Below the pieces are notes generated by a model that was given only the letters and a program-made list of their open reading frames with translations, did not search any database and was not told where the DNA came from. The position numbers were made by a program, and so were the translations under genes. Below are positions 2,208 through 42,229 of a stretch of 64,000 nucleotides of DNA, one piece after another. Source of the DNA: a virus (taxonomy: Duplodnaviria > Heunggongvirae > Uroviricota > Caudoviricetes); IMG/VR virus record IMGVR_UViG_3300027792_000307, positions 866 to 64,865 of that record; one strand, written 5' to 3'. How positions within the stretch are numbered: the stretch's first letter is position 1; each line of letters opens with the position of its first letter.

Positions 2208-4091
2208 AAACGACAAATTCGACGAAAAGGTACGGAATTACCTTAAACAGAAAGAGAAAGAGGGAGTAATTCCCTCTTCCTCTATAAAAGAACGAAGAGA
2301 ATTTCAAAATAGAGTATCAAAGATGGATTTTTCAGAAATCCAAAAACTCTATGATAATGAATAGCACGGGAAAGGTTCTCATGCTAACTACCCTGAAGTA
2401 CGCCCTCGATGGCGTTGGGCGTGATAAAGACTATCACGAATCCCTATGGGAGATGGGCTTGACCCATGTGTCAGTAAGTAGCACGAGAACCCCTGACATG
2501 CTATTCGTTGTCATTATTTTTTTTTTTGCTGGACCATGCTACATGTTAGCACGGATCATGGTAGAGTGGGTGGGACTCCAGTGCCAATTGTTAACATTTC
2601 GCCTGTTTAAGTATATAAACTTTGTGGTGGAAAAATTCCTCGAGAGGTTTCTCCTGTTGAGCCTGTTTTCTACTATATAAAGGTTTCTGTAGTTCTCCTT
2701 TATATACCTTTCGGTTGTTTTGAGGTTTCCTCCGAGAGAGCATTTTTTGGTGGGACCCCCGTGCTAGACCTTATCAGCCATGGCACGAGGCGGCGTGACA
2801 CATGTTAGCACGCTTCAAGGTAAGCGTTGTCATGGGGGTCCCACCTCCGATAGATTTATATACTCATAGCAGATACGGGGCTGTTACGGTAGTAGTTTAA
2901 CAGGAGTAACGGTGGGACTGCCGTGCTAAACAATATCTCGCTTTCCACACGTACATATATATGATGTTGCGAATAATAATATTATATGAATTAGTACGCC
3001 AACAGATAGCACGGGGCAGGGTAGTCCCACCATAAATGCCGTGCCACGCTATAACATGACACTATAAAAGAGTATTATAATGGTTGCTATTATATAGTTA
3101 AAACGGCATTATAATGGTGAAAATTGAAAGGCTCTATATAAATGCCCCTATATAGTAAAGAAAATGCCCCGATTATAATAGAAATTGAGAGTTTTTTTAA
3201 GGAGGGAATTATAATGGCGAGGTAATTGTAGTATATAGTAATACTTGGATGTATAGAATTGTACATTGTGGGATAAAAAATAACGTGTTTATATATATAC
3301 ACCTCAGTATTATAAATGTAATCACCTTATAATACAATATACCGTTCATAAAACAATTTGTTGTTTATTCTCATTATACAATACATAGATATTCTTTATA
3401 CGGTAATTGCCTCGGAAAAGGTTTTATCTATTGTTACATATAATAGCAGTTTATTGCGTGGAATGTAATAGCAACAGGAATAATACCACCCGAAACGTAG
3501 AGCCGTCAATTATTAATGGGCATATATAGAACTATATTCCTTGACCGAAAGGTTTATAAACCCTGTTCGGTTCTACCTATTGACGATGAAACTTTCGTCA
3601 GGAACGTGAGAAAGTATGAAATGCAATAATAACGGCAAGAACAAGCAATATAACGTAACAAACAAGCAACTATTAAAGGAATTAAAAGGCACAGGCAGGT
3701 GTATATATGCAAACTAAAGTACAATGTGATAAAGTATATTGTGGGCATAATATAGGGCAATTTTGCTCATTAAAAAAGATACATATTACAATCGGGGGTT
3801 GTGATATGTATAGGAATTGTAAAGGGTGTGATTAAAAATGAACAGAGCAGATTCTATAATGATAGGGGATAATCTATTATTAATATCCCAACAATTACAA
3901 ACAACCAATCAAGCATTAATAGAGATAATTAAAATAATGAGAGATGATTAAAATGCAATCAATAATAAAGAAAAAGGACTATATAATAGAGGCAGGTGAA
4001 ATAAAAAACAAGTTGTACAATTTAAATGTCGGAGAGCAACTTACAATACAAACACAATATACAACGAGAATATTTGAGAGAGTGATTTAAA

Positions 4092-9177: not shown

Positions 9178-9401
9178 AATACGCAAAATTAACTATGAAA
9201 CAACCAAGCGATTCAATAAAAATAAAATGGGTTGAAATAATTAAGGTTTTAAAAGACGATAGATTTCCAACTTGTATAAAAGGAAAATGCCTAATGTGTA
9301 ATGCAGATAAAGAAGATGTTGGAAGAACCTTTTATTATGATAAAAAATATTGGGATGTAATTACTTTAACAAAAGAGCAGGTTTTTATGGAGATGATATG
9401 A
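9174..9401 (+). CDS. small protein with stereotyped LE(V/I)L-junction C-terminus (array member; tail VFMEMI)
   Basis: ATGA overlap at both ends; 3' end gtttttatggagatgatATGA. Confidence 0.55.
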   Translation: MKYAKLTMKQPSDSIKIKWVEIIKVLKDDRFPTCIKGKCLMCNADKEDVGRTFYYDKKYWDVITLTKEQVFMEMI

Positions 9402-9598
9402 ATAAATTTGAGATAAATGATTATATTAGACTCAAATACGCCCAAGATTATATTGGAGTAATAATAGGAATGAGATACGAATGTAATAAGCACTATGTAT
9501 ATAGAGTTGCATTTATTAAGAATTCAAAGGTATCATTTGAAGATGAAATAGACCTTATTAAACTTACCGAGCAAGAATTATTTATGGAGATATTATGA
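9398..9598 (+). CDS. small protein, LEVL-junction array member (tail LFMEIL)
   Basis: Start in ATGA overlap; 3' end ttatttatggagatattATGA. Confidence 0.55.
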   Translation: MNKFEINDYIRLKYAQDYIGVIIGMRYECNKHYVYRVAFIKNSKVSFEDEIDLIKLTEQELFMEIL

Positions 9599-9855: not shown

Positions 9856-10083
9856 ATGAAAATAGGCAGGATTGTAAGATTAACTTGGAAAGAAGATAAA
9901 CATTATATAGTTATTCTTCAAGTAAAAACAAAGGATACCAGAATGAAACCTGTTACTTATTCTGGAATTGTAATTTCTAATCCAGAAAGGGATACATATA
10001 TTGGCGAAGAATTTTGGTTTAATAGTCGTTATTGGAATATAGAAATATTAAAAAAAGATAAGGCATTTTTGGAGATATTATGA
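9856..10083 (+). CDS. small protein, array member (tail AFLEIL)
   Basis: 3' end gcatttttggagatattATGA overlapping next start. Confidence 0.55.
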   Translation: MKIGRIVRLTWKEDKHYIVILQVKTKDTRMKPVTYSGIVISNPERDTYIGEEFWFNSRYWNIEILKKDKAFLEIL

Positions 10084-13749: not shown

Positions 13750-14022
13750 ATGAGATATAAGATATTAAAACCAAATCATTACTACCGATTTACATATAAA
13801 GAAGGTAAGAATTTATGTAAGGCATATTACTTACATTTTTCTCACTATTCGGAACGGACTAAATTTATAAACGTATTTAAGGCATATAAAGTAAACCATA
13901 ATGGAAATATAAATAAATTTGGCACGAGAGAATTATTATTAAAACCCTACAGAAAAAATAGATATGCAAAGGAAATAACAGAAGAAGAATACGAACAGGG
14001 AGTTATGCTTGAGGTATTATGA
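13750..14022 (+). CDS. small protein, array member (tail VMLEVL)
   Basis: ATGA overlap with next gene. Confidence 0.55.
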   Translation: MRYKILKPNHYYRFTYKEGKNLCKAYYLHFSHYSERTKFINVFKAYKVNHNGNINKFGTRELLLKPYRKNRYAKEITEEEYEQGVMLEVL

Positions 14023-14463: not shown

Positions 14464-14676
14464 ATGGAATTTGAAATTGGGGATTATGTTAGAATTAAGG
14501 TTCATTATTTAGCAAATCCAGATAATTGGAGAGGAAAAATAGTAAATAGAAAGATGAATTTCGACCAGTTTGGTTTACCATTCTATGTGTATAAAATTAT
14601 GATTAAAGATGGAAGAATTGCACATGAAATGGATTGCGATTTAGAGAAAATTGACTGGTTATTGGAGGAATTATGA
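14464..14676 (+). CDS. small protein, array member (IGDYVRIKV N-terminus; tail WLLEEL)
   Basis: ATGA overlap at 3' end (ttggaggaattATGA). Confidence 0.55.
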   Translation: MEFEIGDYVRIKVHYLANPDNWRGKIVNRKMNFDQFGLPFYVYKIMIKDGRIAHEMDCDLEKIDWLLEEL

Positions 14677-14918
14677 TAGAATTTAAAGTGGGGAGTTTCT
14701 ATAAGTTTATTCCCACAAATATAAAAAAAGGATTCTATATATGCAAAGTGTTGGAAGAAAGGAAAGACCTATATATAGTTGAGGTTATTTACGATAAAGA
14801 TGAGAGTAGTACAAGATTTGAAGTAGGAAAGATACTTAAATTTTCAAAAGATAGAGATAATATAAAACCACGAACTGAATATATCAAAGAGGAAGATGTT
14901 TTTCTGGAGGTATTATGA
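14673..14918 (+). CDS. small protein, array member (KVGSFYKF; tail VFLEVL)
   Basis: 3' end gtttttctggaggtattATGA. Confidence 0.55.
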   Translation: MIEFKVGSFYKFIPTNIKKGFYICKVLEERKDLYIVEVIYDKDESSTRFEVGKILKFSKDRDNIKPRTEYIKEEDVFLEVL

Positions 14919-16029: not shown

Positions 16030-17160
16030 ATGGAAGTATTTGAAGTAAACCACCAAGAACTTAAAGCATTCATTAAGAAATGCTATACAAGCAAATTGCC
16101 ACTACATATGTGGGGCACTATTGGAATTGGAAAATCTGAATCTGCCGATGAGGTTGCTAATGAATTGGCAGGGGAGTTCCAACGAAAATATGTTAAATGG
16201 AACAAACTGACGAAAGAGGAAAAGCACAAACTCGCAGAAAATCCAAAGGATTATTTCTTCTTTATGGATATTCGGTTGTCTCAATTAGACCCGAGTGATT
16301 TAAGAGGATTACCTGCACTGAATGGGCACGATACAGTAGAGTGGAAAATTCCATTCTGGTTACACGTAGCAACCCTGAAAGATGCCAAAGGAATTATCTT
16401 CTTTGATGAGATGAACCTTTCTCCACCGAGTATTCAAGCGAGTGGGTATCAGGTAATTCTTGACCGAGCATTAGGAGAGGTTACATTAGCAGACGGTGTT
16501 GGTGTAATCGCAGCAGGTAACAGGATTACAGATAAAGCAAATGTCTATGATATGGCAAAACCACTACAAAATCGGTTCAACCACGTTACCTTGAAAGTTC
16601 CAAACATCGAGGCATGGACATCTTGGGCAATTACCAAAGGAGTTGATACAAGAATAATTACATTCCTTAATGCACGACCACAACTTTTAATGGGTCGGTT
16701 GGATATGAAATCTGGAGATGTGGCATTTCCAACTCCGAGGACTTGGGGTAAATATTGTAGTGCCTTGATTAACGGAGAGACTGGGTTGGATAATCTTATG
16801 CAATTAGCCAGTGCATCTGTTGGAACAGGGGCAGCGACAGAATTTATCAGTTTCATTAAGTTGCAAAAGCAAATCAACTTACAGGAATTGCTAAAGAAAC
16901 CTGAAACGGCAACCAACATCAAGGAAACCGATATGTTATATTCGTTGGTCGGTTTAGTTTCAGAGTGGTATGATGCACATACCAAAGCCGATGACTTGGA
17001 TAAAGTTCTACAAATATCCAACAACCTACAGCCAGAGTTTGCTATCCTTATGCTTCGTATGTGTAAGGAACGACACCTGCCACAATTCAGACGAGATGTA
17101 AACAAATTGGATTCGTGGAAAATAACGTGGAAAAAGTATGGGAAATACTTTGAAATTTAA
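16030..17160 (+). CDS. MoxR-like AAA+ ATPase (AAA_5 type)
   Basis: Walker A GTIGIGKSE, Walker B IIFFDEMNL, sensor-1 AAGN read directly. Partner VWA protein lies 1.2 kb downstream, as in MoxR-VWA pairs. Confidence 0.75.
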   Translation: MEVFEVNHQELKAFIKKCYTSKLPLHMWGTIGIGKSESADEVANELAGEFQRKYVKWNKLTKEEKHKLAENPKDYFFFMDIRLSQLDPSDLRGLPALNGHDTVEWKIPFWLHVATLKDAKGIIFFDEMNLSPPSIQASGYQVILDRALGEVTLADGVGVIAAGNRITDKANVYDMAKPLQNRFNHVTLKVPNIEAWTSWAITKGVDTRIITFLNARPQLLMGRLDMKSGDVAFPTPRTWGKYCSALINGETGLDNLMQLASASVGTGAATEFISFIKLQKQINLQELLKKPETATNIKETDMLYSLVGLVSEWYDAHTKADDLDKVLQISNNLQPEFAILMLRMCKERHLPQFRRDVNKLDSWKITWKKYGKYFEI

Positions 17161-17398: not shown

Positions 17399-17607
17399 AA
17401 TCTAAACCAAAGTATAAAGTGGGGGATTATATACTTGTCCTCCGTTCCCAAAATCCTTATTTGATTTGTAAAATTAAAAAATTATATTCTTACATATTAG
17501 ATGAAATCGTTTATGTTGTTGAGTTTCCAAATGGAAATGAAGGATATTTAAGTGAAGAACAAATGAGAAAAATCAGCAAGGAAAGATACTTTTTAGAGGC
17601 ATTATGA
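17395..17607 (+). CDS. small protein, array member (KVGDYILV; tail YFLEAL)
   Basis: ATGA overlaps both ends. Confidence 0.6.
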   Translation: MKSKPKYKVGDYILVLRSQNPYLICKIKKLYSYILDEIVYVVEFPNGNEGYLSEEQMRKISKERYFLEAL

Positions 17608-17813
17608 AATTCAAAGTTGGCGACCACGTTAGAATAATAACAAAAGAATACGGAGATTTGTGGTATAATAAAGTTGGAACAGTAAAGGATATTTATACAA
17701 ATGAACAAGTTTCTATTGATGTAGAACATTTATCAGAAAAATATTTTGGTGCATTTTTTGAAAGAGAATTAAAAAAAATATCAAAGCAGGAATATTTCCT
17801 TGAGGTATTATAA
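17604..17813 (+). CDS. small protein, array member (KVGDHVRI; tail YFLEVL)
   Basis: Close paralog of previous two (..KISKQEYFLEVL vs ..KISKERYFLEAL). Confidence 0.6.
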   Translation: MKFKVGDHVRIITKEYGDLWYNKVGTVKDIYTNEQVSIDVEHLSEKYFGAFFERELKKISKQEYFLEVL

Positions 17814-18391: not shown

Positions 18392-19669
18392 ATGGTAGAA
18401 TTAAGTCCGTTGGATAAGTTAATTAAAGCAAGAATAGACCTATTAAGAGAAAAACCGTTCTTCGCATTTTTGGCAAACCACTTGGAGTTTGTGGAAGTTA
18501 CTGAGAAAGAATGCCCTACAATGGGGGTTGATATAAAGGGAACTATGGTATATAATCCCAACTTTGTAGCAAAACTTTCAAAGGAAGAATGTAAAGGGGT
18601 TCTTTGCCACGAGGTTATGCACTGTGCACTGGAACATATGAAACGGCACAGAGGAAAGAAATTGGATTTATGGAATGTTGCAGGTGATACAGTTATTAAT
18701 ACAATCCTTTCAGCAGATGGATTAACCTTGCCTAAAGATGGAATTATGCCTCACAACGGTGATATAACTCTATTTGGAATTAGGATAACTGAAACCGATA
18801 AGAAATGTGCCGAGGAAGTTTACGATGCTGTATATTCAAAGTTAAGGCAGAAAGATATAAAGGATTTGGAGAAATTCTTAAAGAGCCACGCTGATAGTAA
18901 AAAGGGATTTGATGTTCATATATACCCTGCACCTGGAGATGGAGAAGATGGGGACCAAAAAGGAAATGGAAAACAAGGAGAAGGATTATCTGGAGGATTA
19001 GCAGGGGAATTAAAGACAGATAAAGGAAAGAACTGGGGAAAATTAATGGTTGATGCTTGTACCTTTGCCAGAAACCAAGGTAAACTACCAGCAGGAATGG
19101 AAAGAATCCTCGGGGATTTATTGAAAACTGATTTGGATTGGAGAGGGTTACTCTATAGATATATCACAAACCAAATACCTGTGGATTATTCTTGGGCACA
19201 ACCATCAAAGAAATCCTATTCTGTTGGAACATATCTCCCGTCTGTTACAAAGGAATCCCTTGATTTAGTAATTGCCATAGATACCTCTGGGAGTATTTCC
19301 AAAACAGAGTTAGATGAATTTGCTTCGGAATTATGTGGTATTATTAATTCCTTTGCGAATGTTTCTCTTACGATTATAGATTGCGATTGCGAGATTAATT
19401 CTGTGGTTAAGAAACAACGAGCAACAGTAACCGACATTACAGATTTAAAATTAAGAGGGGGAGGAGGTACTTCACACATCCCAGTATATCGTTGGTTGGA
19501 CGAGAATCTTCCTAATGCCAAATTGGTTATCTGTTTTACGGATGGATATACATCGTTTCCGAAGTCAAGTTCAATCCCAACATTATGGGTAGTCGCAGGA
19601 AGCAGCAGAATGGAGGAAAACAAATTCCCATTCGGAGATGTGGTTTACCTTGATAGGAAAGAAAATTAG
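18392..19669 (+). CDS. putative metallopeptidase domain + von Willebrand factor A domain protein (DUF2201-like partner of MoxR ATPases)
   Basis: HExxH (CHEVMHCALEH) in the N-terminal half and a MIDAS-type motif DTSGSIS in the C-terminal half, read directly. Confidence 0.7.
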   Translation: MVELSPLDKLIKARIDLLREKPFFAFLANHLEFVEVTEKECPTMGVDIKGTMVYNPNFVAKLSKEECKGVLCHEVMHCALEHMKRHRGKKLDLWNVAGDTVINTILSADGLTLPKDGIMPHNGDITLFGIRITETDKKCAEEVYDAVYSKLRQKDIKDLEKFLKSHADSKKGFDVHIYPAPGDGEDGDQKGNGKQGEGLSGGLAGELKTDKGKNWGKLMVDACTFARNQGKLPAGMERILGDLLKTDLDWRGLLYRYITNQIPVDYSWAQPSKKSYSVGTYLPSVTKESLDLVIAIDTSGSISKTELDEFASELCGIINSFANVSLTIIDCDCEINSVVKKQRATVTDITDLKLRGGGGTSHIPVYRWLDENLPNAKLVICFTDGYTSFPKSSSIPTLWVVAGSSRMEENKFPFGDVVYLDRKEN

Positions 19670-20137: not shown

Positions 20138-20400
20138 TATTAAAGGTTGGTCATTACTATAAAACTACAAGAGTAAGAAAGGGACATTGGATGAAAGACC
20201 TCTTTATAAAGGTAGTTTCCTTAAATGAACATGGAAGCGAAGCAGAATATCCTCTTCAATATACCTTGGATTCTTTTGGTTATCATAATAGACCAACAAA
20301 AGGACGTACCTGGCATATGAGTGAACGATTTTGCTCTATCTATTTTAAGGAAATCACAAAGGAAGAATATGATACCGAGTGGTTATTGGTGAATCTATGA
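20134..20400 (+). CDS. small protein, array member (KVGHYYKT)
   Basis: ATGA-overlap start. Confidence 0.5.
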   Translation: MILKVGHYYKTTRVRKGHWMKDLFIKVVSLNEHGSEAEYPLQYTLDSFGYHNRPTKGRTWHMSERFCSIYFKEITKEEYDTEWLLVNL

Positions 20401-20663
20401 GATTAAAGGGAAGATATATTTTAACGACCAACGATTTTAAGTTGTTATTTAAATGCAACGAGGTTCTTGAAAGGCACAAAACAAGCGAAGGCATAGATTA
20501 TTATATATCTGCACACATATATAGATATAATAACACATACAGTAATATTGAGGGAACACCCAAAAATCAAAACAGAAAGTTATTTTTATTTACAGATAAA
20601 AATGATAAACCTCTGGACTGGGTTTTTCTTACGAGGAATGAATTCCTTGTGGAGTTATTATGA
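20397..20663 (+). CDS. small protein, array member (tail FLVELL)
   Basis: ATGA overlaps both ends. Confidence 0.5.
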   Translation: MRLKGRYILTTNDFKLLFKCNEVLERHKTSEGIDYYISAHIYRYNNTYSNIEGTPKNQNRKLFLFTDKNDKPLDWVFLTRNEFLVELL

Positions 20664-20935
20664 AATTAGAAAGAAACAAATGGTATTTAATAAGTAGTAA
20701 ATATATAGAAGAAAAAACAGGGAAAAGGATAGTTGCCGCAAAGTTTATTGGAGGAGAATCTATTCTTATGTCTTGGGAGTTATCAATACCAATAGAACAT
20801 CCAGCAAGGCATAACGGAGAAGTTATTGTAAATCGTATACTATATAAAGGAAGAATGGGATATTGTGTTTATATAGAACCAGAACGAGTTATAAGAAAAC
20901 TTACAAAGATGGAAGCATTTTTGGAATCACTATGA
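20660..20935 (+). CDS. small protein, array member (tail AFLESL)
   Basis: 3' end gcatttttggaatcactATGA. Confidence 0.55.
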   Translation: MKLERNKWYLISSKYIEEKTGKRIVAAKFIGGESILMSWELSIPIEHPARHNGEVIVNRILYKGRMGYCVYIEPERVIRKLTKMEAFLESL

Positions 20936-21171
20936 AAAAAGAGAAAATTAAAGTTGGGGATTATGTTAGGATAATAAAACCAGATACCATAATTGAAGGA
21001 GATAACTATTTTACAGCGGGGAAAGATAAAATAGCAAAAGTAGTACTCTTAAGGAAAGGAGATTGTAGATATAAAGTACAATTTTTAGAGAGAGTTTTTG
21101 CAGTGGAGATATACAGCGATAGTGAAGTAAAAAAATTGACCGATGTAGAGATATTTATGGAGATATTGTGA
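20932..21171 (+). CDS. small protein, array member (KVGDYVRI; tail IFMEIL)
   Basis: Canonical N- and C-terminal family motifs. Confidence 0.6.
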   Translation: MKKEKIKVGDYVRIIKPDTIIEGDNYFTAGKDKIAKVVLLRKGDCRYKVQFLERVFAVEIYSDSEVKKLTDVEIFMEIL

Positions 21172-22739: not shown

Positions 22740-23122
22740 AAGAAATCAGAAGGAAATTAGGCACGGTAAATATCGGCAATTACTTTAATAAAATCCTGTG
22801 GGTTGATATTATCCCACTTACCAACGATTTAATTAGGTATAAAATCTATTGTTGCGTATCTGAATTGCCAGACGGATTTGATATATCTCAAGTTCCAAAA
22901 GTATCCAACGGATTTATAGAAAAACGATTTCACTCGTGGTTTATTAATGGAGGGAGGAACTATAAAACCTACCACAAAATATATATGGATATGGATTCTA
23001 TGGAAGAATTGCGGGTAATTGTGGAGGAATTAATAAAGAACCCTATATTAGATATTTTCACGTTCAATATCACAATAGATGTGGAAAAAATACTAAACGA
23101 ACTAAAGATAAGTGTATTATGA
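22736..23122 (+). CDS. hypothetical protein
   Basis: ATGA-overlap start (gtgatATGAaag). Confidence 0.5.
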   Translation: MKEIRRKLGTVNIGNYFNKILWVDIIPLTNDLIRYKIYCCVSELPDGFDISQVPKVSNGFIEKRFHSWFINGGRNYKTYHKIYMDMDSMEELRVIVEELIKNPILDIFTFNITIDVEKILNELKISVL

Positions 23123-23355
23123 AGAGAGGGGATTATTTTATAGTTAATTGCGAGGGTAAAAAACTAATTGGAAGAATAACTTGTTTTAGGAAGGAAATTA
23201 TATATTATATTTGCTTGTACAATGATATTGATGATTTGGCTTATTCTTATGTAGAAGATAGAGCCGGGAGAAAAGACAAATTTACGAAACAAAGCAATAT
23301 GGCAGAAAGATTAAAAATGATAAACGAAGAGGAAGTTTTTTTAGAAATTCTATAA
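23119..23355 (+). CDS. small protein, array member (tail VFLEIL)
   Basis: ATGA-overlap start; last gene before a 125-bp promoter-like gap. Confidence 0.55.
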   Translation: MKRGDYFIVNCEGKKLIGRITCFRKEIIYYICLYNDIDDLAYSYVEDRAGRKDKFTKQSNMAERLKMINEEEVFLEIL

Positions 23356-23480
23356 GGAGAGAGCATTTAGAATGGCATAAAGTAGCCAAAATCACAAAAA
23401 TGAAAAATTATATGCTATATAGGTAATATTTTCAGAAAAAATCGATAGTATTAAGCAAAAATAAAAGGAGTTGAAAAGAA

Positions 23481-24155
23481 ATGGAAAAGAAACAAAAAAC
23501 AATAGTTGCGAGTACTTCCATAGTGGCAGCAGCCATAGTGGTTCTCGCAGCATTGGGAGGGCAGGTGTTTGGCACAGACACAACTGTGAGTGTTATCGTG
23601 CCTACAGGAACATATAGAATTGGAGATACAATTACTGTATCAATTCAATGTTCTCCGACAAGACCAGTAAAAGCATGGGAATTGAATGTAAATTTCAATA
23701 AGAATGTTTTGAATGCCAATGCGGTGTTTGAAGGAAATTTCTTTGTTGGTAAAACAACATTCTTTAATGCGGGAACTATACAGAATTCCAATGGAAAAAT
23801 TATCAACATATATGATTTGATAATTGGACCCGGAAATGTAACAACCCAAGGAAATTTAATTACAATATCTTTTACTGCGGTTGGGTATGGAACTAGTGCC
23901 GTAGAAATATACAATGTTGGACTTACAAATGAGACAATGTATATTCCAATTAGTATAGTTAATTCCACAACAATAGTATATTCTCCATATGATATGAATG
24001 CGGATGGTGTGGTTGATATGCTAGATTTAGTTGATGTTGCTGGGCACTATGGAGAAACTGGAACATCTGGTTGGATTATGCAGGATATAAACAAAGATGG
24101 GAAGATTTCGGTTATGGACTTGGTGTTAATATCTACTCATTGGGGTAGTTATTAA
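23481..24155 (+). CDS. secreted/membrane-anchored cohesin-like domain + type-I dockerin protein
   Basis: N-terminal hydrophobic segment; cohesin-like start TVSVIVPTGTYRIGDTITVSIQC; two textbook dockerin Ca-binding repeats DMNADGVVDMLDLVDV and DINKDGKISVMDLVLI at the C-terminus. Confidence 0.65.
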   Translation: MEKKQKTIVASTSIVAAAIVVLAALGGQVFGTDTTVSVIVPTGTYRIGDTITVSIQCSPTRPVKAWELNVNFNKNVLNANAVFEGNFFVGKTTFFNAGTIQNSNGKIINIYDLIIGPGNVTTQGNLITISFTAVGYGTSAVEIYNVGLTNETMYIPISIVNSTTIVYSPYDMNADGVVDMLDLVDVAGHYGETGTSGWIMQDINKDGKISVMDLVLISTHWGSY

Positions 24156-24652
24156 TGAGGAAGTGGTTGTTGGTCTCTGTAGGAATAGTAGGGATGGTGA
24201 TTATGGTTGTGATGAGTGGCTGTTTTGAGCCACCCACCACCACCAACACAGTATATATTTATCCACAAAGTTCCTATAAAGCAGTTGAGGAGCAATTTAC
24301 CATATCAATTAAGTGTGATTCAATACAGGAAATCAATGGATTTGAAACCTCACTAAAATTTAATAAAACCCATATAAGAGTAATTAGTTGGGAGTGGGAG
24401 GATTTCTTTTCCACAGATTCATTTAAGAGTGTGCCTATTATAGACAATGTAAATGGAATTGTATTTGATATCTACGCAGTTTCTATAGGATTGGATGGAG
24501 CAAAATCAAACAAACCAATAATAACCTTTACTTGTATTCCTATATCAACTGGAACAAGTAAAATTGAACTATATAATACAAACATTGTTAATGCCTCTGG
24601 AATTATTCCGTGTGAATTAATCAATGGAACGTTAATTTCAGCTTATTCGTAG
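24155..24652 (+). CDS. membrane-anchored cohesin-like domain protein (paralog of N-terminal domain of previous gene)
   Basis: TM helix; ..FTISIKCDSIQEINGFETSLKFNKTHIRVISW.. parallels ..ITVSIQCSPTRPVKAWELNVNFNKNVLNANAV.. Confidence 0.55.
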   Translation: MRKWLLVSVGIVGMVIMVVMSGCFEPPTTTNTVYIYPQSSYKAVEEQFTISIKCDSIQEINGFETSLKFNKTHIRVISWEWEDFFSTDSFKSVPIIDNVNGIVFDIYAVSIGLDGAKSNKPIITFTCIPISTGTSKIELYNTNIVNASGIIPCELINGTLISAYS

Positions 24653-25779: not shown

Positions 25780-26011
25780 AATTTGTTCAATATGTGGGGA
25801 GAGAACCATATTTTTTGTTTGGGGGAGTAGCAGAAATATAAAAGGAACTGCCTCTAATTTAATAATTAAACACTGTAGCAGAGAATTAGATACTATGGAT
25901 GTATTTTGCCACAATTGTTGTAAGAAGTATGATATTTTAGAGGAAAGACCACCGATAATAAATAGACCGAGGAAATATAAGACTTGGAGCGATACAAAAT
26001 GGAGAAGTTAA
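25772..26011 (+). CDS. Cys-rich small protein (CSICGERTIFFVW family; paralog at 49068..49250)
   Basis: CSICGERTIFFVWGSSRN vs CSICGIRTIFYVWSTTRN in the 49068 gene. Confidence 0.5.
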   Translation: MGKICSICGERTIFFVWGSSRNIKGTASNLIIKHCSRELDTMDVFCHNCCKKYDILEERPPIINRPRKYKTWSDTKWRS

Positions 26012-26319
26012 AAAGTAATAAAAGAAAACCAAAAGTTGGAGATTGGGTGAGAATAACAAATCCTTGGGGAGATAAATGGAAGGAATCTGGGATTTCTCAA
26101 AAAGATAGAAAAGCAGTTAAGGGGATGGTAGGAAAAATAACAAGAATACAGGAAGGTATGAAAACTGGAGCAGGATTATACCTCGATTATGTTATTAATA
26201 TTATATCAAGTAAGGATGAAATAAGAAAATCAATGCCCGGTTTCTCTGGACAGGTTTGGGATATAAGGGAATTTGAAGTTATACACGATAAACTCGAGAT
26301 ATTTTGTGAGGTATTATAA
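25999..26319 (+). CDS. small protein, array member (KVGDWVRI; tail IFCEVL)
   Basis: N-terminal and junction motifs. Confidence 0.55.
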   Translation: MEKLKSNKRKPKVGDWVRITNPWGDKWKESGISQKDRKAVKGMVGKITRIQEGMKTGAGLYLDYVINIISSKDEIRKSMPGFSGQVWDIREFEVIHDKLEIFCEVL

Positions 26320-26321: not shown

Positions 26322-26948
26322 ATGAATACGATAGAATTGTTTTCTGGAACAAAATCCTTTAGTAAGGTAATGAAAAAATATAACCACGATGTATTTACTA
26401 TTGATAATAATCCAGATTTAAATCCAGATTTATGTATAGATATACTACAAATGCCAAAAACTATTAAGAAAGTGGATATATTCTGGGCTTCTCCTCCTTG
26501 CACAGGATTTAGTGTTGCTTCTATAAGTAGACATTGGACTGGAGGATACAGAAAGTATATACCTAAATCTGAAACGGCTAAATTAGGATTACAATTACTT
26601 GACAGAACTATAGAGATTATATCTATAAATAAACCAACAGAATGGTATATAGAAAATCCTCGGGGAGTTATGCGTAAAGTAATAGACGATATATTTAAGA
26701 AATATGGAATTGCAGATTATAGGAGAGTTACAATTACTTATTGCCAATATGGAGATATACGGATGAAACCAACTGATATATGGACAAATAATATGACTTG
26801 GATACCAAAACCTGTATGTAAAAATGGAGATACCTGCCATACCTCTGCACCGAGAGGTTCAAGAACAGGAACTCAAGGATTAAAGAATGCAACTGAAAGA
26901 GGAAAAATCCCAGAGGAATTATTTGTTGAGATACTAAATGGGAGGTAA
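26322..26948 (+). CDS. C5-cytosine DNA methyltransferase-like protein, unusually short (208 aa; motifs I, IV, VI, VIII-like only)
   Basis: LFSGTKS (motif I-like), SPPCTGFS (PC motif IV), ENPRG (ENV motif VI), QYGDIRMKP (VIII-like). No room for a canonical TRD or motifs IX/X. Confidence 0.65.
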   Translation: MNTIELFSGTKSFSKVMKKYNHDVFTIDNNPDLNPDLCIDILQMPKTIKKVDIFWASPPCTGFSVASISRHWTGGYRKYIPKSETAKLGLQLLDRTIEIISINKPTEWYIENPRGVMRKVIDDIFKKYGIADYRRVTITYCQYGDIRMKPTDIWTNNMTWIPKPVCKNGDTCHTSAPRGSRTGTQGLKNATERGKIPEELFVEILNGR

Positions 26949-28115: not shown

Positions 28116-28343
28116 ATGGGATATTCAAAATACATTAAGGACGTTAGAGTTAGAACAGGAGAATTCTATATAGCTAAAAAAATATCTAAAGATAGATATA
28201 AAATAATATTTATAAAAGGAAGTTGGGGTTTCCAAAGTCCAGATTCAGATATAGTTGATGAAAAGTGGGTATTTACAGAAAATGATGGCAAATACAAATC
28301 AGAATATATCAGCAAGCAAGAGGCTTTTTTGGAGATGTTATGA
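28116..28343 (+). CDS. small protein, array member (tail AFLEML)
   Basis: 3' end gcttttttggagatgttATGA. Confidence 0.55.
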   Translation: MGYSKYIKDVRVRTGEFYIAKKISKDRYKIIFIKGSWGFQSPDSDIVDEKWVFTENDGKYKSEYISKQEAFLEML

Positions 28344-28585
28344 AAAGAATTAAGAAATTAACCGAATTTAAGGTCGGAGAGAAGTACCTTTTCATAAGTA
28401 AATTAGGTAATAAATCCCTTGGTATTTCCACCGAACTTAAAGATGGATTTGCCATATTTAGAATATATCAATCCACATATAAAGACCTTCCTTCAGGAAC
28501 AGAATGTTGTTTAGATGAATTCTCCTTTAAAGATGGAAAATCTTACTTATTAACTGAAAACGAGTTTCTCGTGGAGTTATTATGA
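28340..28585 (+). CDS. small protein, array member (KVGEKYLF; tail FLVELL)
   Basis: ATGA overlaps both ends. Confidence 0.55.
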   Translation: MKRIKKLTEFKVGEKYLFISKLGNKSLGISTELKDGFAIFRIYQSTYKDLPSGTECCLDEFSFKDGKSYLLTENEFLVELL

Positions 28586-28857
28586 TTAAAGTGGGAGATA
28601 AGGTTAAATTTATCTACTATTATACAGATGCTACAAGGATATATTTTGGTATAATAAGAAAAATTGGAGAGAAAGTAGCTAGTTATCCAAATAATATAAA
28701 CATAGTAGAATTTGAGCAACGTTGTTTTATTAGGAGAAAACTAGATGGAACTATAGATGTAGATAATTATAAAGAGATATCTGGAAAATATTTTGCTTAT
28801 TCAAGTATAGAAAAAATAGATAATTTTGATTCGGAAATTTTCCTGGAGTTATTATGA
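28582..28857 (+). CDS. small protein, array member (KVGDKVKF; tail IFLELL)
   Basis: ATGA overlaps both ends. Confidence 0.55.
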   Translation: MIKVGDKVKFIYYYTDATRIYFGIIRKIGEKVASYPNNINIVEFEQRCFIRRKLDGTIDVDNYKEISGKYFAYSSIEKIDNFDSEIFLELL

Positions 28858-34322: not shown

Positions 34323-35372
34323 ATGCAAATTCTATCAATTTTTTATGATAATATTGGAATTGGACGTGCTTTAATATTAGGAGATTCTGGAAAAACATAT
34401 AATACAAATGTAGACTTAGAAATGAATAAGGCGTGGTGTTCATGTGATTCTTATGTTTATAACAAAGACAAAGCATGTAAACATATCTCTTACTTGCTTA
34501 TGAATTTGGAGTTTGACAAAATGGTTAATAAAATTGATTCATTAGATAAATTATCCACAGGTTCAGATACAATTGATAAATTACTTGGTGGGGGTATTCC
34601 TTATGGAACTATCACCACGATTTTTGGAGAACCAAAGTGTGGCAAGTCTATGTTAGCATATCAAGTTGGAATCGCTAATATAGATAAAACAAACCTAAAA
34701 ACCCTGTATATAGATACAGAAGGAATTAGGAAGCAGGACTTTTTTTCAATCATAAATAAATTTAACTCAAGGTATAATGTGCCTCCGAAGGAATTAACGG
34801 ATAAATTCCAATATATAACAAGCCTGGCAGATTTAAAGTTAAAATCAATCCAGAAGTTATTTCAGATATTTGGTTTTCTGCCTATGATTGAAATGTCCAA
34901 AGGTGGAAGATATACAGTCCAGTTTGAAACCTGTGCTCCAACGATTAAAGAAGAGGAATGGAAGAATTATAGTATGATTATTATTGATTCTATGACAGCT
35001 CCTCTTAAAATGGCTATCGGTTCAAGCACGGCAAATCTTCCAACGAGAGCACAATTCACTGAACGGTTATTTGGTTTATTGATTGAAATAGCGATGCGAC
35101 ATAATATAGCGGTTATTGTAAACCACCACGCTTCAGTTGACCCGATGAATTTATTTGGTAGGGATTTTGGTAAGGCTTGGGGTGGAGACCCTATTCTATA
35201 CAATTCAAAATATGCCTTATTAATACTGGATGCAGATGCAAAGACCCGTAAGGAAACAAATTGGAACCACGAGGCTAGACGGGTTATGTTGATACGAAGA
35301 CCGGACGAACAAGATACGAACCAGAAATATCCGGTTAGATTAATGAAGGATTATGGGTACACAGACAAGTAA
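34323..35372 (+). CDS. SWIM-type zinc finger fused to RecA/RadA/KaiC-like ATPase
   Basis: N-terminal CSCDSYVYNKDKACKHI (CxC..CxH); Walker A GEPKCGKS; Walker B MIIIDS. Confidence 0.65.
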   Translation: MQILSIFYDNIGIGRALILGDSGKTYNTNVDLEMNKAWCSCDSYVYNKDKACKHISYLLMNLEFDKMVNKIDSLDKLSTGSDTIDKLLGGGIPYGTITTIFGEPKCGKSMLAYQVGIANIDKTNLKTLYIDTEGIRKQDFFSIINKFNSRYNVPPKELTDKFQYITSLADLKLKSIQKLFQIFGFLPMIEMSKGGRYTVQFETCAPTIKEEEWKNYSMIIIDSMTAPLKMAIGSSTANLPTRAQFTERLFGLLIEIAMRHNIAVIVNHHASVDPMNLFGRDFGKAWGGDPILYNSKYALLILDADAKTRKETNWNHEARRVMLIRRPDEQDTNQKYPVRLMKDYGYTDK

Positions 35373-37418: not shown

Positions 37419-37709
37419 ATGGAAATAAAAGAGTTATGTAAGAGGGCACACGAAACAGCAGCTAAAAAAGGATTTTGGAAAGAACCGAGGGCAATTTCTG
37501 AATTACTTATGCTTGTAGTTACTGAATTGGGAGAAGCTTGTGAGGCTGATAGAAAAGGGGACGAGGCTAACTTCCGAGAAGAAATAGCTGATACATTCAT
37601 ACGTTTATTTGATATGGTTGAAGCATTGGATATTGATATCGAGGAAGAAATTCTTAAGAAGATGAAAATTAATGAAGGAAGGCCGATGAAGCATGGGAAA
37701 CGGTACTAA
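37419..37709 (+). CDS. MazG-like nucleoside triphosphate pyrophosphohydrolase
   Basis: ELGEACEA..(n)..EEIADTFIRLFDM..IDIEEEILKKMKINEGR matches MazG EExxE/D motifs; taaggagggaacATG SD. Confidence 0.7.
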   Translation: MEIKELCKRAHETAAKKGFWKEPRAISELLMLVVTELGEACEADRKGDEANFREEIADTFIRLFDMVEALDIDIEEEILKKMKINEGRPMKHGKRY

Positions 37710-37923
37710 ATTTAGGATAAAACAAAGACCTGGGCATTCAAATAGTTCAATTACCTTCTATTGTGTATGTAAAAAAGTTCCATTACTTCCTTTATATATA
37801 GAAGAAGAATCGTTTATTAAATTAAAAGATGCTATAGAAAAGAAAAAAGAGTTGATGGAAAGAAAAGGAAAAATAAAAAGTAAGTGGATAACAGAAGAGG
37901 AACAATTTGCGGAGATATTATGA
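37693..37923 (+). CDS. small protein, array member (tail QFAEIL)
   Basis: 3' end caatttgcggagatattATGA. Confidence 0.5.
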   Translation: MGNGTKFRIKQRPGHSNSSITFYCVCKKVPLLPLYIEEESFIKLKDAIEKKKELMERKGKIKSKWITEEEQFAEIL

Positions 37924-41819: not shown

Positions 41820-42020
41820 ATGATAATTGAAGAATTCCCATATAATTTTGGAGTTCCTCCACGAGATATGGTTTTTATCTGGTTCCACAAGAAAGACCTG
41901 GAACCGGACTATATCTTAACTATTGATGAATTCAATGGAGTTAAAAAAATCCTTGGTAAAGATTACAAAAAAGTTTCACTTGAAGAATTTAAAATGGCTT
42001 ATATGGCGGAATTAATATGA
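41820..42020 (+). CDS. small protein, array member (tail YMAELI)
   Basis: ATGA overlap 3'. Confidence 0.5.
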   Translation: MIIEEFPYNFGVPPRDMVFIWFHKKDLEPDYILTIDEFNGVKKILGKDYKKVSLEEFKMAYMAELI

Positions 42021-42229
42021 CAGTTTTAAAAAAAGATTTAAAGAATGGAGCATATTATAGATTTGTAAATCATAGTACTAATTATTTTAAGTTTATTAAA
42101 ATGGGAAAGAATAAAGAATATCCTCTTATATTTAGAGAACCGAGTGGAAGACAATTAGAATGGTCTTTATCTGTATTAGAGATGATAACACCTTTAACAG
42201 AATTAGAGTATTTTCTGGAGGTATTATGA
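42017..42229 (+). CDS. small protein, array member (tail YFLEVL)
   Basis: 3' end tattttctggaggtattATGA. Confidence 0.55.
   Translation: MTVLKKDLKNGAYYRFVNHSTNYFKFIKMGKNKEYPLIFREPSGRQLEWSLSVLEMITPLTELEYFLEVL

What the first reader, a model, noticed from the sequence alone, without database searches (positions are those of the whole stretch)
23481..24652. Cohesin-dockerin pair: secreted cohesin+dockerin protein followed by a membrane-anchored cohesin
Gene 23481..24155 ends with two textbook type-I dockerin Ca-binding segments (DMNADGVVDMLDLVDV.. and DINKDGKISVMDLVLI..) after a cohesin-like beta-sandwich start (TVSVIVPTGTYRIGDTITVSIQC). The next gene has a TM anchor plus a paralogous cohesin-like domain. 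A self-contained cohesin/dockerin pair is a protein-assembly Lego. Here it is preceded by its own 125-bp promoter-like gap. It could tether a viral or host surface component (adhesion, virion decoration, cell-surface remodelling).
Basis: partly seen in the sequence, partly recalled or inferred. Interest (0 to 1): 0.75.

Follow-up and report, generated by a model that had tools for sequence, protein, structure and literature searches.

The report
Viral mini cohesin–dockerin surface cassette
A large tailed virus, probably of uncultured Thermoplasmatota archaea, carries a stripped-down copy of its likely host's cohesin–dockerin "protein Velcro": one exported cohesin+dockerin protein and one lipid-anchored cohesin, which most likely plug into or mask the host's surface protein network during infection.

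Summary
ORF A (23481–24155, 224 aa) passes Pfam's own thresholds for Cohesin and Dockerin_1. ORF B (24155–24652, 165 aa) has no Pfam hit, but it is homologous to A (E 3e-17) and its model matches only cohesins in the PDB.

- B's N-terminus is a lipoprotein signal (lipobox S-G-C + PP linker, in 12 of 12 small relatives), not a plain TM anchor.
- The dockerin is not demonstrably type I.

New context:
- The element is a ~155-kb tailed virus. Terminase and portal genes lie just outside the window.
- A's modules are 41–56% identical to those of chromosomal cohesin–dockerin clusters in Thermoplasmatota archaea.
- In those clusters, secreted Coh–X–Doc proteins sit next to C-terminally membrane-anchored Coh proteins, and Doc-bearing GHL15 and cadherin-like proteins lie nearby.
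- The viral pair has the same two-tier layout with every payload and spacer domain removed.
- It recurs in several viral lineages, overlaps TAATG in three of four, and is under purifying selection.

Best reading: an exported, host-derived mimic that docks onto or caps the host surface network. Surface remodelling or superinfection exclusion is inferred, not shown. No partner binding could be tested. I found no earlier description of a viral cohesin+dockerin cassette.

The parts
23356..23480 (+). 125-bp intergenic gap upstream of gene A. It contains a TATA-like stretch (TTATATGCTATATAGG, 23408-23423) and a Shine-Dalgarno-like AAGGAG (23465-23470) 10 nt before the ATG.
   Evidence: Read directly from the sequence. 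Sigma-70 promoter-like sites are not enriched (11 found, 13.0 +/- 3.7 expected). TATA-like elements occur in a few other gaps, but this was not tested statistically. The gap length is not conserved in relatives (12 to 294 bp).
23481..24155 (+). Gene A: 224-aa exported cohesin+dockerin protein with no payload domain.
   Evidence: ORF. Pfam Cohesin and Dockerin_1 both score above their gathering cut-offs. There are 18 homologous clusters, all metagenomic. dN/dS is 0.12.
23481..23573 (+). N-terminal export signal of A (aa 1-31): MEKKQK, a ~20-residue hydrophobic core, then GGQVFG|TD. It is either a cleavable Sec signal or an uncleaved signal anchor.
   Evidence: Sequence. The basic-hydrophobic-small-residue layout is conserved in the family although the sequence is poorly conserved (37-47% identity in this segment). 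No signal-peptide predictor was available, so cleavage is inferred.
23577..23978 (+). Cohesin module of A (aa 33-166), a nine-strand beta-sandwich.
   Evidence: AF2 pLDDT is 85-96 over this segment. All top-50 Foldseek PDB hits are cohesins, led by C. perfringens 2jh2 and A. fulgidus 2xdh (E about 1e-8). It is 44-53% identical to Thermoplasmatota cohesins.
23988..24152 (+). Dockerin module of A (aa 170-224). It has two 22-residue segments (171-192 and 202-223), each a 12-residue D-x-N-x-D-G-x-x-x-x-x-D Ca loop plus a helix. It is joined to the cohesin by only about 3-4 residues.
   Evidence: Pfam Dockerin_1. D171, D182, D202, G207 and D213 are invariant and N173 and D175 are at least 90% conserved in 18 sequences. 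The family profile matches PDB dockerins 3kcp_A (5e-8) and 2y3n_B (1.3e-5). The two segments are 9/22 identical. The AF2 model shows two helices but at low confidence (pLDDT 38-62).
24155..24652 (+). Gene B: 165-aa lipobox-anchored single cohesin. Its start overlaps A's stop codon (TAATG).
   Evidence: ORF. BLASTP against A gives E 3e-17. The A-family cohesin HMM scores 58 bits. B homologues lie immediately downstream of A homologues in L050, L053 and L055. dN/dS is 0.27.
24155..24223 (+). Lipoprotein-type signal of B (aa 1-23): MRK, a hydrophobic core, then lipobox V-M-S-G-C23. It is followed by the linker FEPPTTTN.
   Evidence: S21-G22-C23-F24-E25-P26-P27 are invariant in A3. The Cys plus PP linker is present in L053 and L055 and in 12 of 12 small family representatives. 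The lipobox consensus comes from PMC12462473. Lipidation itself was not tested.
24248..24640 (+). Cohesin module of B (aa 32-162).
   Evidence: AF2 pLDDT is about 80-97 over the module. All top-50 Foldseek PDB hits are cohesins, including 4dh2 OlpC, 5lxv ScaC and 2xdh A. fulgidus. It is only 26-34% identical to any other cohesin, including A.

Best explanation
Genes A and B are a co-expressed, payload-free cohesin-dockerin cassette. It sits in a ~155-kb tailed virus whose likely host is a low-GC Thermoplasmatota archaeon.

Shown:
- A consists of an export signal, a cohesin and a dockerin.
- B consists of a lipobox signal and a cohesin.
- A's modules derive from the same stock as the host's chromosomal surface cohesin-dockerin clusters.
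- The layout 'secreted Coh-Doc protein followed by membrane-anchored Coh protein' copies the host cassette, with every spacer and payload domain removed.

Inferred mechanism:
1. During infection both proteins are exported by the Sec pathway.
2. B is lipid-anchored on the outer face of the cell membrane.
3. A docks through its Ca-dependent dockerin onto B. This is what the dockerin of A. fulgidus ORF2375 does with the cohesin of the adjacent ORF2376. A may also dock onto the host's own anchored cohesins.
4. A's host-like cohesin is then free to capture host dockerin-bearing surface proteins, such as the GHL15 hydrolase-like, cadherin/Ig-like and Coh-X-Doc adaptor proteins.
5. The viral proteins carry only the connectors and no functional cargo, so their effect must come from occupying, capping or re-routing connections in the host's surface network.

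The most plausible benefit is surface remodelling, for example masking a receptor complex (superinfection exclusion, or protecting progeny from sticking to debris) or changing cell-cell adhesion. That last step is speculation.
For: Domain identity: Pfam scores above the cut-offs, cohesin folds for both proteins, and a dockerin profile match to the PDB.

Operon: TAATG overlap, conserved in L053 and L055.

Viral element: terminase and portal lie 7 kb or more left of the window. Relatives carry terminase, portal, Mu-F and gp10 genes. PolB, Rad51-like, RNR and homing-endonuclease genes are in the window.

Host link:
- 39 genome loci were found, and about 25 of the best are Thermoplasmatota.
- A's cohesin is 44-53% and its dockerin 44-56% identical to theirs.
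- In a crude NJ tree the viral A clade is sister to the Thermoplasmatota clade, with 41-42% mean identity against 28-30% to other groups.
- GC of several of these loci is 29-36%, against about 32% for the window.
- The host loci are chromosomal, next to Hdr/hydrogenase and GlmS genes.

Host cassette logic: Coh-Doc proteins lack a C-terminal TM segment and Coh-only proteins have one. Payloads are GHL15, cadherin/Ig and PKD domains.

Minimal form: the shortest cellular Coh-Doc proteins are 322-343 aa, while the viral ones are 223-229 aa.

Lipobox: 12 of 12 small relatives have it, and the candidate host loci themselves encode SGC-lipobox proteins.

Selection: dN/dS is 0.12 and 0.27.

Precedent: the dockerin of one gene binds the cohesin of the adjacent gene in A. 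fulgidus (PMC9705933).

Surface theme: neighbours of A in L054 are CARDB-like and Flg_new_2 proteins, the latter with a C-terminal hydrophobic segment. A glycosyltransferase in the window and a ~10-kb sugar-modification cluster next to it show that the virus invests in surface chemistry.
Against: - No binding was tested. No multimer prediction was available, and the dockerin part of the A model has low confidence.
- B is absent beside A in at least five lineages. A therefore cannot depend on B everywhere.
- B is only 26-34% identical to any cohesin, so its specificity cannot be inferred from homology.
- The host assignment rests on gene similarity, GC content and archaeal-flavoured genes, including only a weak Alba hit. 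There is no CRISPR or tRNA link.
- The archaeal lipoprotein enzymes AliA/AliB are reported to have gaps in Thermoplasmata (PMC12462473).
- Whether A's N-terminal signal is cleaved is unknown.
- Expression timing is unknown.
- There is no direct evidence at all for the superinfection-exclusion or adhesion role.
Confidence: 0.5

Rival explanations
1. Closed, orthogonal viral assembly. A and B bind only each other, or A binds A head-to-tail through its own cohesin and dockerin. They build a virus-specified coat or polymer on the infected cell surface and do not touch host cohesins or dockerins.
For: - A carries both modules with only a ~3-4-residue linker, so any Coh-Doc contact must be in trans. 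That favours chains or rings.
- R. bromii Amy4 was proposed to self-aggregate in this way (PMC4611034).
- A occurs alone in several lineages.
- B has diverged far from the host cohesins, as expected for an orthogonal partner.
- The dockerin is the most conserved part of A.
Against: - A's cohesin and dockerin remain 44-56% identical to host modules, and the viral A clade sits next to the host clade. This gives no sign of escape from host specificity.
- A polymer of bare connectors has no obvious use.
- Nothing was tested directly.
Confidence: 0.2
2. Virion-associated adhesion. A (with or without B) decorates the virus particle, or acts as an adaptor that attaches virions to host cohesin- or dockerin-bearing surface proteins (receptor binding).
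For: - In L008 and L009 the A homologue lies just upstream of the terminase, portal and head genes.
- Host-like connector modules would make an effective receptor-binding device.
Against: - Both proteins have N-terminal export signals and B has a lipobox. Tailed-virus particles assemble in the cytoplasm (established knowledge).
- In the window the genes lie among small early or replication-type genes, on the strand opposite to the terminase and portal and more than 20 kb away from them.
- No other Coh or Doc gene that could link A to a particle was found in the window, its flanks or the related loci.
Confidence: 0.08
3. Passenger or lysogenic-conversion gene. The cassette is a captured fragment of the host surface system. 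It either does nothing for the virus or simply adds one more adhesin or scaffold to the host (benefiting a lysogen) without any antagonistic role.
For: - The modules clearly have a host-type origin.
- Viruses often carry host-derived surface 'morons' (general knowledge).
Against: - The cassette is conserved across viral lineages down to 50% identity, with intact ORFs, conserved Ca ligands and dN/dS of 0.12-0.27.
- All payload domains have been removed systematically, and a new anchor type (lipobox) has appeared that none of the ~70 host proteins uses. This points to adaptation.
- No integrase or other lysogeny gene was seen among the ~20 larger ORFs annotated, although most ORFs of the window were not scanned.
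Confidence: 0.12
4. Lysis proteins. B is a spanin-like lipoprotein and A is a holin-like membrane protein.
For: Weak PHROG hits to the N-termini only: B to an Rz-like spanin (E 0.24) and A to a holin (E 0.87).
Against: - Those hits cover only the hydrophobic signal regions and are not significant.
- The bulk of both proteins is a confidently predicted cohesin fold.
- Spanins belong to phages of diderm bacteria (established knowledge), whereas the host here is probably an archaeon.
Confidence: 0.02

Closest known systems
Archaeoglobus fulgidus ORF2375/ORF2376 non-cellulosomal cohesin-dockerin pair (Bayer 1999; Haimovitz 2008; Voronov-Goldman 2011; structure 2xdh)
   Same: - Two adjacent archaeal-type genes, the first with cohesin+dockerin and the second with a cohesin.
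- No cellulolytic context.
- The dockerin of the first gene binds the cohesin of the second strongly and specifically (PMC9705933).
- 2xdh is among the best structural matches of both viral cohesins.
   Different: - The A. fulgidus dockerin lies at aa 432-506 of a protein more than 500 aa long, so that protein has extra domains. Viral A is 224 aa with a ~3-4-residue Coh-Doc linker.
- The viral second protein is lipobox-anchored.
- The viral genes are in a virus genome.
- Sequence identity to 2xdh is only 10-16%.
Chromosomal cohesin-dockerin surface clusters of Thermoplasmatota MAGs (for example CP070798.1, locus L013 5338-9353; CAYGAC010000086, locus L020 7167-11183)
   Same: - Closest sequence relatives of A's modules: cohesin 44-53% and dockerin 44-56% identity.
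- Same gene order: secreted Coh-...-Doc, then membrane-anchored Coh.
- Shared motifs: TFFNxGxI, TNETxYI and HYGETGxPGWIxxD.
   Different: - Host proteins are 313-640 aa or longer and carry Ig/Big, PKD, GHL15 or cadherin-like domains.
- Their anchor is a C-terminal TM segment, not a lipobox.
- A third, dockerin-only gene is part of the host cluster and is absent from the virus.
- As far as I found in the held library, these host systems have not been characterised experimentally.
Adaptor plus anchoring scaffoldins of bacterial cellulosomes and amylosomes (for example A. cellulolyticus ScaA/ScaB, C. thermocellum CipA with OlpB/SdbA, R. bromii Amy4/Sca proteins)
   Same: - Two-tier logic: a Coh+Doc adaptor docks onto a cell-bound cohesin protein.
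- Ca-dependent duplicated dockerin segments.
- Cohesin beta-sandwich fold.
- Amy4 shows that Coh and Doc on one chain can self-associate.
   Different: - No enzymes, no CBM, no multi-cohesin scaffoldin, and no SLH or sortase anchor.
- No X-module.
- Not involved in polysaccharide degradation as far as can be seen.
- Encoded by a virus.
Phage-encoded receptor-masking lipoproteins (for example T5 Llp and Cor-type superinfection-exclusion proteins); functional analogy only, recalled from general knowledge
   Same: A small lipobox protein encoded by a lytic-type tailed virus outside the structural module, exported to the cell envelope, where it could block a surface component.
   Different: - No sequence or fold relationship.
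- The analogy was not tested here.
- The target here would be a cohesin-dockerin network, not an outer-membrane transporter.
Dockerin genes mentioned in viral metagenome contigs (PMC13452462: ANME-2-like contig with NosD-like and dockerin genes; bioRxiv 10.1101/2024.01.25.577265: a jumbo phage 'dockerin')
   Same: Dockerin modules on putative viral contigs. In the first paper they are related to archaeal host genes and are proposed to influence adhesion.
   Different: - Those reports describe dockerins attached to other domains.
- PMC13452462 does not contain the word cohesin. I checked only the dockerin passage of the preprint.
- Neither passage describes a cohesin partner, a lipobox-anchored cohesin or a payload-free cassette.

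Membership tests
Cohesin module (Pfam PF00963) | Sequence match to the family model above the curated threshold | tested here: met
   A: 32.0 bits against a cut-off of 24.1. B alone does not reach Pfam. It is linked to the family through A (BLASTP E 3e-17) and through the A-family HMM (58 bits).
Cohesin module (Pfam PF00963) | Nine-stranded flattened beta-sandwich (jelly-roll) fold | tested here: met
   The AF2 models reach pLDDT of about 80-97 over most of both modules. All top-50 Foldseek PDB matches are cohesins for both A and B, with probability 1.00 and TM-score up to 0.77 normalised to the target. B's model used an alignment made mostly of A-family rows.
Cohesin module (Pfam PF00963) | Binds a cognate dockerin | not testable with these tools
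   No complex prediction or experiment was available.
Dockerin module (Pfam PF00404) | Two tandem ~22-residue segments, each with a 12-residue EF-hand-like Ca loop (Asp/Asn at positions 1, 3, 5, 9, 12) followed by a helix | tested here: met
   Segments 171-192 and 202-223. D171, D182, D202, G207 and D213 are invariant, and N173 and D175 are at least 90% conserved. Pfam scores 26.5 bits against a cut-off of 22.9. The profile hits PDB dockerins. Two helices are predicted at 180-189 and 211-218, but at low pLDDT.
Dockerin module (Pfam PF00404) | Ca-dependent folding and cohesin binding | not testable with these tools
   Would need biochemistry, for example binding lost in EDTA.
   The best PDB sequence matches come mostly from complexes titled type II or from X-dockerins of scaffoldins: 3kcp, 2y3n_B, 2b59, 4wi0, 4u3s, 5g5d and 5k39 (with titles). 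Positions 10-11 are M-L and V-M. The Ser-Thr criterion is recalled from the literature, and no formal type phylogeny was run.
Cellulosome / amylosome | Dockerin-bearing carbohydrate-active enzymes plus a scaffoldin with several cohesins and/or a CBM | tested here: not met
   Only one dockerin and two single-cohesin proteins occur in the window, its flanks and the related viral loci, and neither has a catalytic or CBM domain.
Archaeal two-gene cassette [Coh-Doc protein][anchored Coh protein] (A. fulgidus ORF2375/2376; Thermoplasmatota, Methanoperedens) | Adjacent, co-oriented genes. The first has a signal peptide, Coh and Doc and no anchor. The second has Coh and a membrane anchor. | tested here: met
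   Window genes A and B. The same layout occurs in L022, L035, L040, L042, L047 and in the three-gene clusters of L013, L015, L019 and L020. The anchor type differs: lipobox in the virus, C-terminal TM in the cellular genes.
Archaeal two-gene cassette [Coh-Doc protein][anchored Coh protein] | The dockerin of the first protein binds the cohesin of the second | not testable with these tools
   Shown experimentally only for A. fulgidus (PMC9705933).
Lipobox lipoprotein (bacterial or archaeal) | N-terminal basic residues, a hydrophobic core, then [L/V/I]-[A/S/T/V/I]-[G/A/S]-C within about 15-35 residues | tested here: met
   B: MRK...VVM-S-G-C23. The Cys is conserved in A3, in L053 and L055 and in 12 of 12 small family representatives. 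The consensus is from PMC12462473. Position -3 is M, T, F, L, V or I, so some members fit only the looser PROSITE-type pattern, which I recalled rather than looked up.
Lipobox lipoprotein (bacterial or archaeal) | Actual lipid modification and signal cleavage at the Cys | not testable with these tools
   Needs mass spectrometry or labelling. AliA/AliB homologues are reported to be patchy in Thermoplasmata.
Phage spanin / holin | Significant similarity to lysis-protein families, with a small Pro-rich outer-membrane lipoprotein (o-spanin) or a multi-TM holin | tested here: not met
   PHROG E-values are 0.24 and 0.87 and cover only the signal regions. Both proteins are cohesin folds.

The most novel reading that the evidence does not exclude
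This would be the first described virus-encoded cohesin-dockerin system. An archaeal virus has miniaturised its host's surface scaffolding into bare connectors. It has also invented a lipoprotein-anchored mini-cohesin family: about a dozen clusters at 50% identity, and wherever genomic context could be examined the family lies next to the viral Coh-Doc gene. The virus would use these connectors as a dominant-negative or hijacking device against the host's extracellular protein network, for superinfection exclusion or control of cell adhesion. If so, cohesin-dockerin networks of uncultured archaea are a battleground of virus-host conflict, and the viral pair is a naturally minimal connector set (a 224-aa Coh-Doc protein and a ~140-aa mature cohesin).
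Probability: 0.3. Interest if true: 0.75.

Novelty: new variant of a known kind. Interest (0 to 1): 0.58.

Why it matters
Cohesin-dockerin pairs are the classic high-affinity connectors of bacterial cellulosomes, and they are widely used in synthetic biology. In archaea they are abundant but their function is unknown. A virus that keeps only the connectors offers three things:

1. **A handle on the archaeal surface networks.** It could show what these networks do and whether they serve as virus receptors.
2. **A host link.** It ties a ~155-kb uncultured virus to Thermoplasmatota.
3. **A compact natural connector set.** A has almost no linker between its cohesin and dockerin, and B is a lipid-anchored mini-cohesin. 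Both could be tested directly for specificity and orthogonality.

It would also add "mimicry of extracellular scaffolding" to the known ways in which viruses remodel the host cell surface.

Tried and rejected
- **Known phages.** Megablast of 24 kb around the locus and tblastn of A against 50,697 phage records gave no match. PHROGs and NCBIfam gave nothing significant for A or B.
- **Is B a recent duplicate of A, or restricted to one clade?** I first concluded this from the word-based search (3 hits) and from L005, L006 and L008. I then withdrew it. Divergent B homologues follow A in L050, L053 and L055, and the exhaustive search finds about 12 small clusters at 50% identity. B is no closer to A (28%) than to host cohesins (26-34%).
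- **Full-length matches in archaeal genomes.** The matches that seemed to cover A end to end are unions of a dockerin at the end of one gene and a cohesin at the start of the next. They are not 224-aa proteins.
- **Other partners in the virus.** Family HMMs and a dockerin regular expression found no other Coh or Doc gene in the window, in roughly 10 kb beyond each end, or in the related viral loci. The rest of the ~155-kb genome could not be read.
- **Sigma-70 promoter and terminator scan.** At background level, and not appropriate for an archaeal virus. A quick look at the intergenic gaps showed TATA-like elements, but I did not test them statistically.
- **tRNAs and tandem repeats.** Nothing relevant. 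I briefly considered a Borg-like element of Methanoperedens because of the low GC and single-strand coding. I dropped the idea because of the terminase and portal genes and the much closer Thermoplasmatota similarity.
- **Literature.** Peer et al. 2009 (PMC3035643) is not held. Five searches for viral cohesin or dockerin reports returned only passing mentions of dockerin.
- **Mapping conservation onto the 8-3-6-5 dockerin-binding face.** I note only that the near-invariant residues (K64, E67; T93, F94, N96, G98, I100; G105, I107, Y111, L113; G147, N150, E151, T152) fall in or next to predicted strands 3, 5, 6 and 8.
Full report
**1. The observation**

Gene A is 23481–24155 (+, 224 aa) and gene B is 24155–24652 (+, 165 aa). 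The quoted peptides are present. A's TAA stop and B's ATG share one base (TAATG at 24153–24157). A 125-bp gap precedes A.

Pfam places A in Cohesin (32.0 bits, curated cut-off 24.1, aa 38–137) and in Dockerin_1 (26.5 bits, cut-off 22.9, aa 170–217). B gets no Pfam, PHROG or NCBIfam assignment. It does align to A over the whole β-sandwich (28% identity, E 3e-17).

AlphaFold2 models support both assignments:
- A has mean pLDDT 75, with about 85–96 across the cohesin.
- B has mean pLDDT 80.
- For each model, all top-50 PDB matches are cohesins. They include the non-cellulosomal cohesins of *C. perfringens* (2jh2) and *A. fulgidus* (2xdh).

The dockerin part of the A model shows the expected two helices, but at low confidence. 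Its identity rests on sequence:
- There are two 22-residue segments (171–192 and 202–223, 9/22 identical).
- The Ca-loop positions D171, D182, D202, G207 and D213 are invariant, and N173 and D175 are at least 90% conserved, in 18 family members.
- The family profile matches solved dockerins (3kcp_A at 5e-8, 2y3n_B at 1.3e-5).

**2. Two corrections to the description**

*The "TM anchor" of B is a lipoprotein signal.* Its sequence is MRK, a hydrophobic core, V-M-S-G-C23, and then F-E-P-P. The S-G-C-F-E-P-P stretch is invariant in the close homologues. A cysteine in lipobox position followed by a proline-rich linker is also present in the divergent copies of L053 and L055 and in 12 of 12 small (159–201 aa) representatives found by the exhaustive search. 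Lipobox lipoproteins are established in archaea and are common in Euryarchaeota (PMC12462473).

*"Textbook type I" is not supported.* The seven best PDB dockerin matches come mostly from complexes titled type II, several of them X-dockerins of scaffoldins (with titles). The recognition positions 10–11 are M-L and V-M.

**3. What the element is**

The window is about 32% GC, is coded almost entirely on the + strand, and has no tRNA genes. It carries the following genes:
- family-B DNA polymerase;
- Rad51/RadA-like recombinase;
- primase-like protein;
- class I/II-type ribonucleotide reductase;
- LAGLIDADG endonuclease;
- glycosyltransferase;
- MoxR-like ATPase with a DUF2201 partner.

Walking off the left end finds a terminase large subunit, a weak Alba-like hit and a portal on the opposite strand. 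Walking off the right end finds a ~10-kb sugar-modification cluster. A more distant A homologue lies next to terminase, portal, Mu-F and HK97-gp10 genes.

The same protein A is found on contigs of up to 155 kb from several samples. The element is therefore a large tailed virus. It has no near relative among 50,697 deposited phage genomes.

**4. Where the modules come from**

A scan of one genome per prokaryotic species found 39 loci. About 25 of the best are Thermoplasmatota MAGs (40–54% identity). *Methanoperedens*, *Methanosarcina* and a few bacteria are more distant.

In Thermoplasmatota chromosomes the relatives form a conserved cluster beside housekeeping genes (Hdr/hydrogenase, GlmS). 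Its members are:

| Host gene | Architecture | Size |
|---|---|---|
| Dockerin-only protein | signal – X – Doc | ~330 aa |
| Adaptor | signal – Coh – Ig-like repeats – Doc | 540–640 aa |
| Anchored cohesin | signal – Coh – PKD – C-terminal TM | 390–470 aa |

Other dockerin partners in these loci carry GHL15 glycosyl-hydrolase-like, cadherin-like and β-propeller domains.

A simple rule holds across about 70 cellular proteins. Coh–Doc proteins lack a C-terminal TM segment, Coh-only proteins have one, and none has a credible lipobox. Pairs of [Coh–Doc][anchored Coh] genes also occur in *Methanoperedens* and in Dehalococcoidia. This mirrors the *A. fulgidus* ORF2375/ORF2376 pair, whose dockerin and cohesin bind each other strongly (PMC9705933).

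The relationship of the viral modules to these host modules is as follows:
- A's cohesin is 44–53% identical, and its dockerin 44–56% identical, to the Thermoplasmatota modules.
- In a crude neighbour-joining tree the viral A cohesins are monophyletic and sister to the Thermoplasmatota clade. Mean identity is 41–42% to that clade and 28–30% to other groups.
- B's family is monophyletic on a long branch. On average it is closest to the Thermoplasmatota cohesins (26–27%), and it is no closer to A.
- Several of these archaeal loci have 29–36% GC, and they encode their own SGC-lipobox proteins.

I therefore consider a low-GC Thermoplasmatota archaeon the likely host, at roughly 0.7. There is no CRISPR or tRNA link.

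**5. What is special about the viral version**

It is the host cassette reduced to its connectors. A is 223–229 aa in all viral lineages, with only about 3–4 residues between the last cohesin strand and the first Ca loop. The shortest cellular Coh–Doc proteins in the sample are 322–343 aa. B is a bare cohesin on a lipobox with a short Pro-rich tether.

The window, about 10 kb beyond each end, and the related viral loci contain no other cohesin or dockerin gene.

The cassette is old and maintained:
- B follows A in lineages where A is 80%, 61% and 50% identical to the window copy (L050, L053, L055). The TAATG-type overlap is kept in L053 and L055.
- B is missing beside A in L005, L006/7, L008/9, L054 and L049.
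- In the least saturated comparison (window against L050, dS about 1.1), dN/dS is 0.12 for A and 0.27 for B. B accumulates amino-acid changes 2.3 times faster.

**6. Mechanism**

*Shown:* domain identities, export-type N-termini, operon structure, host-type origin, conservation and purifying selection.

*Inferred:* both proteins are exported. B is lipid-anchored at the outer face of the membrane. A docks through its dockerin on B and/or on host anchored cohesins. A's host-like cohesin can then hold host dockerin proteins. Because the viral proteins carry no cargo, they can act only by occupying or re-routing connections in the host network.

The biological pay-off is a hypothesis. It could be receptor masking or superinfection exclusion, prevention of progeny loss on debris, or altered cell–cell adhesion. 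Context offers only weak support: surface-protein neighbours in L054, a second lipobox candidate at 58636–58935, and the virus's large glycan-modification gene set.

The rivals are:
- **Closed A–B or A–A assembly (0.2).** It is supported by the very short linker, which forces trans interactions, and by the A-only lineages.
- **Passenger or conversion gene (0.12).**
- **Virion adaptor (0.08).** It is disfavoured by the export signals.
- **Lysis proteins (0.02).** They are excluded by the folds.

**7. Comparison and novelty**

The modules are ordinary members of the cohesin and dockerin families. The two-gene logic matches archaeal non-cellulosomal cassettes and, functionally, the adaptor and anchoring scaffoldins of cellulosomes. 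It is not a cellulosome, because it has no enzymes, no CBM and no multi-cohesin scaffoldin.

Three things are new: the viral location, the payload-free miniaturisation, and the lipobox-anchored mini-cohesin family. In the held literature I found only passing mentions of dockerin genes on viral contigs (PMC13452462; bioRxiv 10.1101/2024.01.25.577265). I found no viral cohesin and no cassette like this one. The library is incomplete, so this is absence of evidence only.

I rate the finding a new variant of a known kind, with interest about 0.58. The decisive tests are multimer prediction and all-against-all Ca-dependent binding between the viral and host modules.

Noticed in passing
window, about 16 small + strand ORFs, e.g. 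9350-9598, 9856-10083, 13750-14022, 14673-14918, 17604-17813, 20379-20663, 20863-21171, 23119-23355, 25984-26319, 28340-28585, 28582-28857, 37693-37923, 42017-42229: Many small proteins (56-111 aa) end with the same C-terminal motif...(E/D)-x-(F/L)-x-E-[I/V/L]-L-COOH (for example EIFMEIL, EVFLEIL, EIFCEVL). Several begin with G-D-(Y/W)-(V/F). The 208-aa methylase-like protein at 26322-26948 has ...EELFVEILNGR. This looks like a multi-copy small-protein family or a shared C-terminal tag. Two members had no Pfam hit.
   Followed up: partly
window 58636-58935 (+): A second small lipobox candidate (99 aa, MKKLSILIIILIILSCISISGC|TEEEE...). It has no Pfam hit. The virus may export more than one lipoprotein.
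   Followed up: partly
L056 8910-18792 (same virus, immediately right of the window): A ~10-kb sugar/glycan gene cluster follows the RNR and glutaredoxin genes. It includes sulfotransferase, NTP-transferase, NAD-epimerase/dehydratase, SIS, methyltransferase, three glycosyltransferases, GHMP kinase, PfkB kinase and a dual-specificity phosphatase. This is unusually large for a virus and suggests glycan remodelling of the host surface or of the virion.
   Followed up: no
L058 1-2981 (same virus, left of the window, opposite strand): A terminase large subunit and a portal flank a 90-aa ORF with a weak Alba hit (Alba is an archaeal chromatin protein). The structural module is on the strand opposite to the 64-kb window.
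   Followed up: no
window 34323-35372 (+): The Rad51/RadA-like recombinase (Pfam Rad51, 1e-18) has an N-terminal SWIM zinc-finger hit (E 0.0025, below the cut-off). This is an unusual fusion.
   Followed up: no
window 50838-52013 (+): A free-standing LAGLIDADG homing endonuclease (391 aa) lies in the lowest-GC stretch of the window (26% GC at 50001-52000), between the polymerase region and a glycosyltransferase.
   Followed up: no
window 16030-17160 and 18392-19669 (+): A MoxR-like AAA ATPase (phrog_1297, 1e-77) with a DUF2201/VWA-like partner two genes downstream. This is a recurrent phage pair of unknown role.
   Followed up: no
L054 480-2316 (virus related through P0012): In this lineage the A homologue has no B. 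It is preceded by a CARDB-like protein (a faint precomputed Pfam hit) and by a 386-aa Flg_new_2-repeat protein with a Cys-rich region and a C-terminal hydrophobic segment. This is a different set of surface proteins in the same genomic position.
   Followed up: partly
P0027, P0031, P0032, P0034 (proteins): After its own small family, B's closest relatives are 750-1100-aa proteins with 4-5 tandem cohesins. P0027 and P0032, whose sequences I read, also have a repeated C-terminal domain. They are true scaffoldin-like proteins of unknown organisms, and Chadwick et al. (PMC9012536) note that earlier surveys found no such proteins in archaea.
   Followed up: no
window 1-4000: GC (37-40%) and GC skew (about 0-0.1) differ from the rest of the window (about 30% GC, skew 0.2-0.39). 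There are long gaps without ORFs (2681-3943) and short tandem repeats at 143-207, 3623-3681 and 3917-3954. This may be the switch region between the divergently transcribed structural and early modules, or an origin.
   Followed up: no
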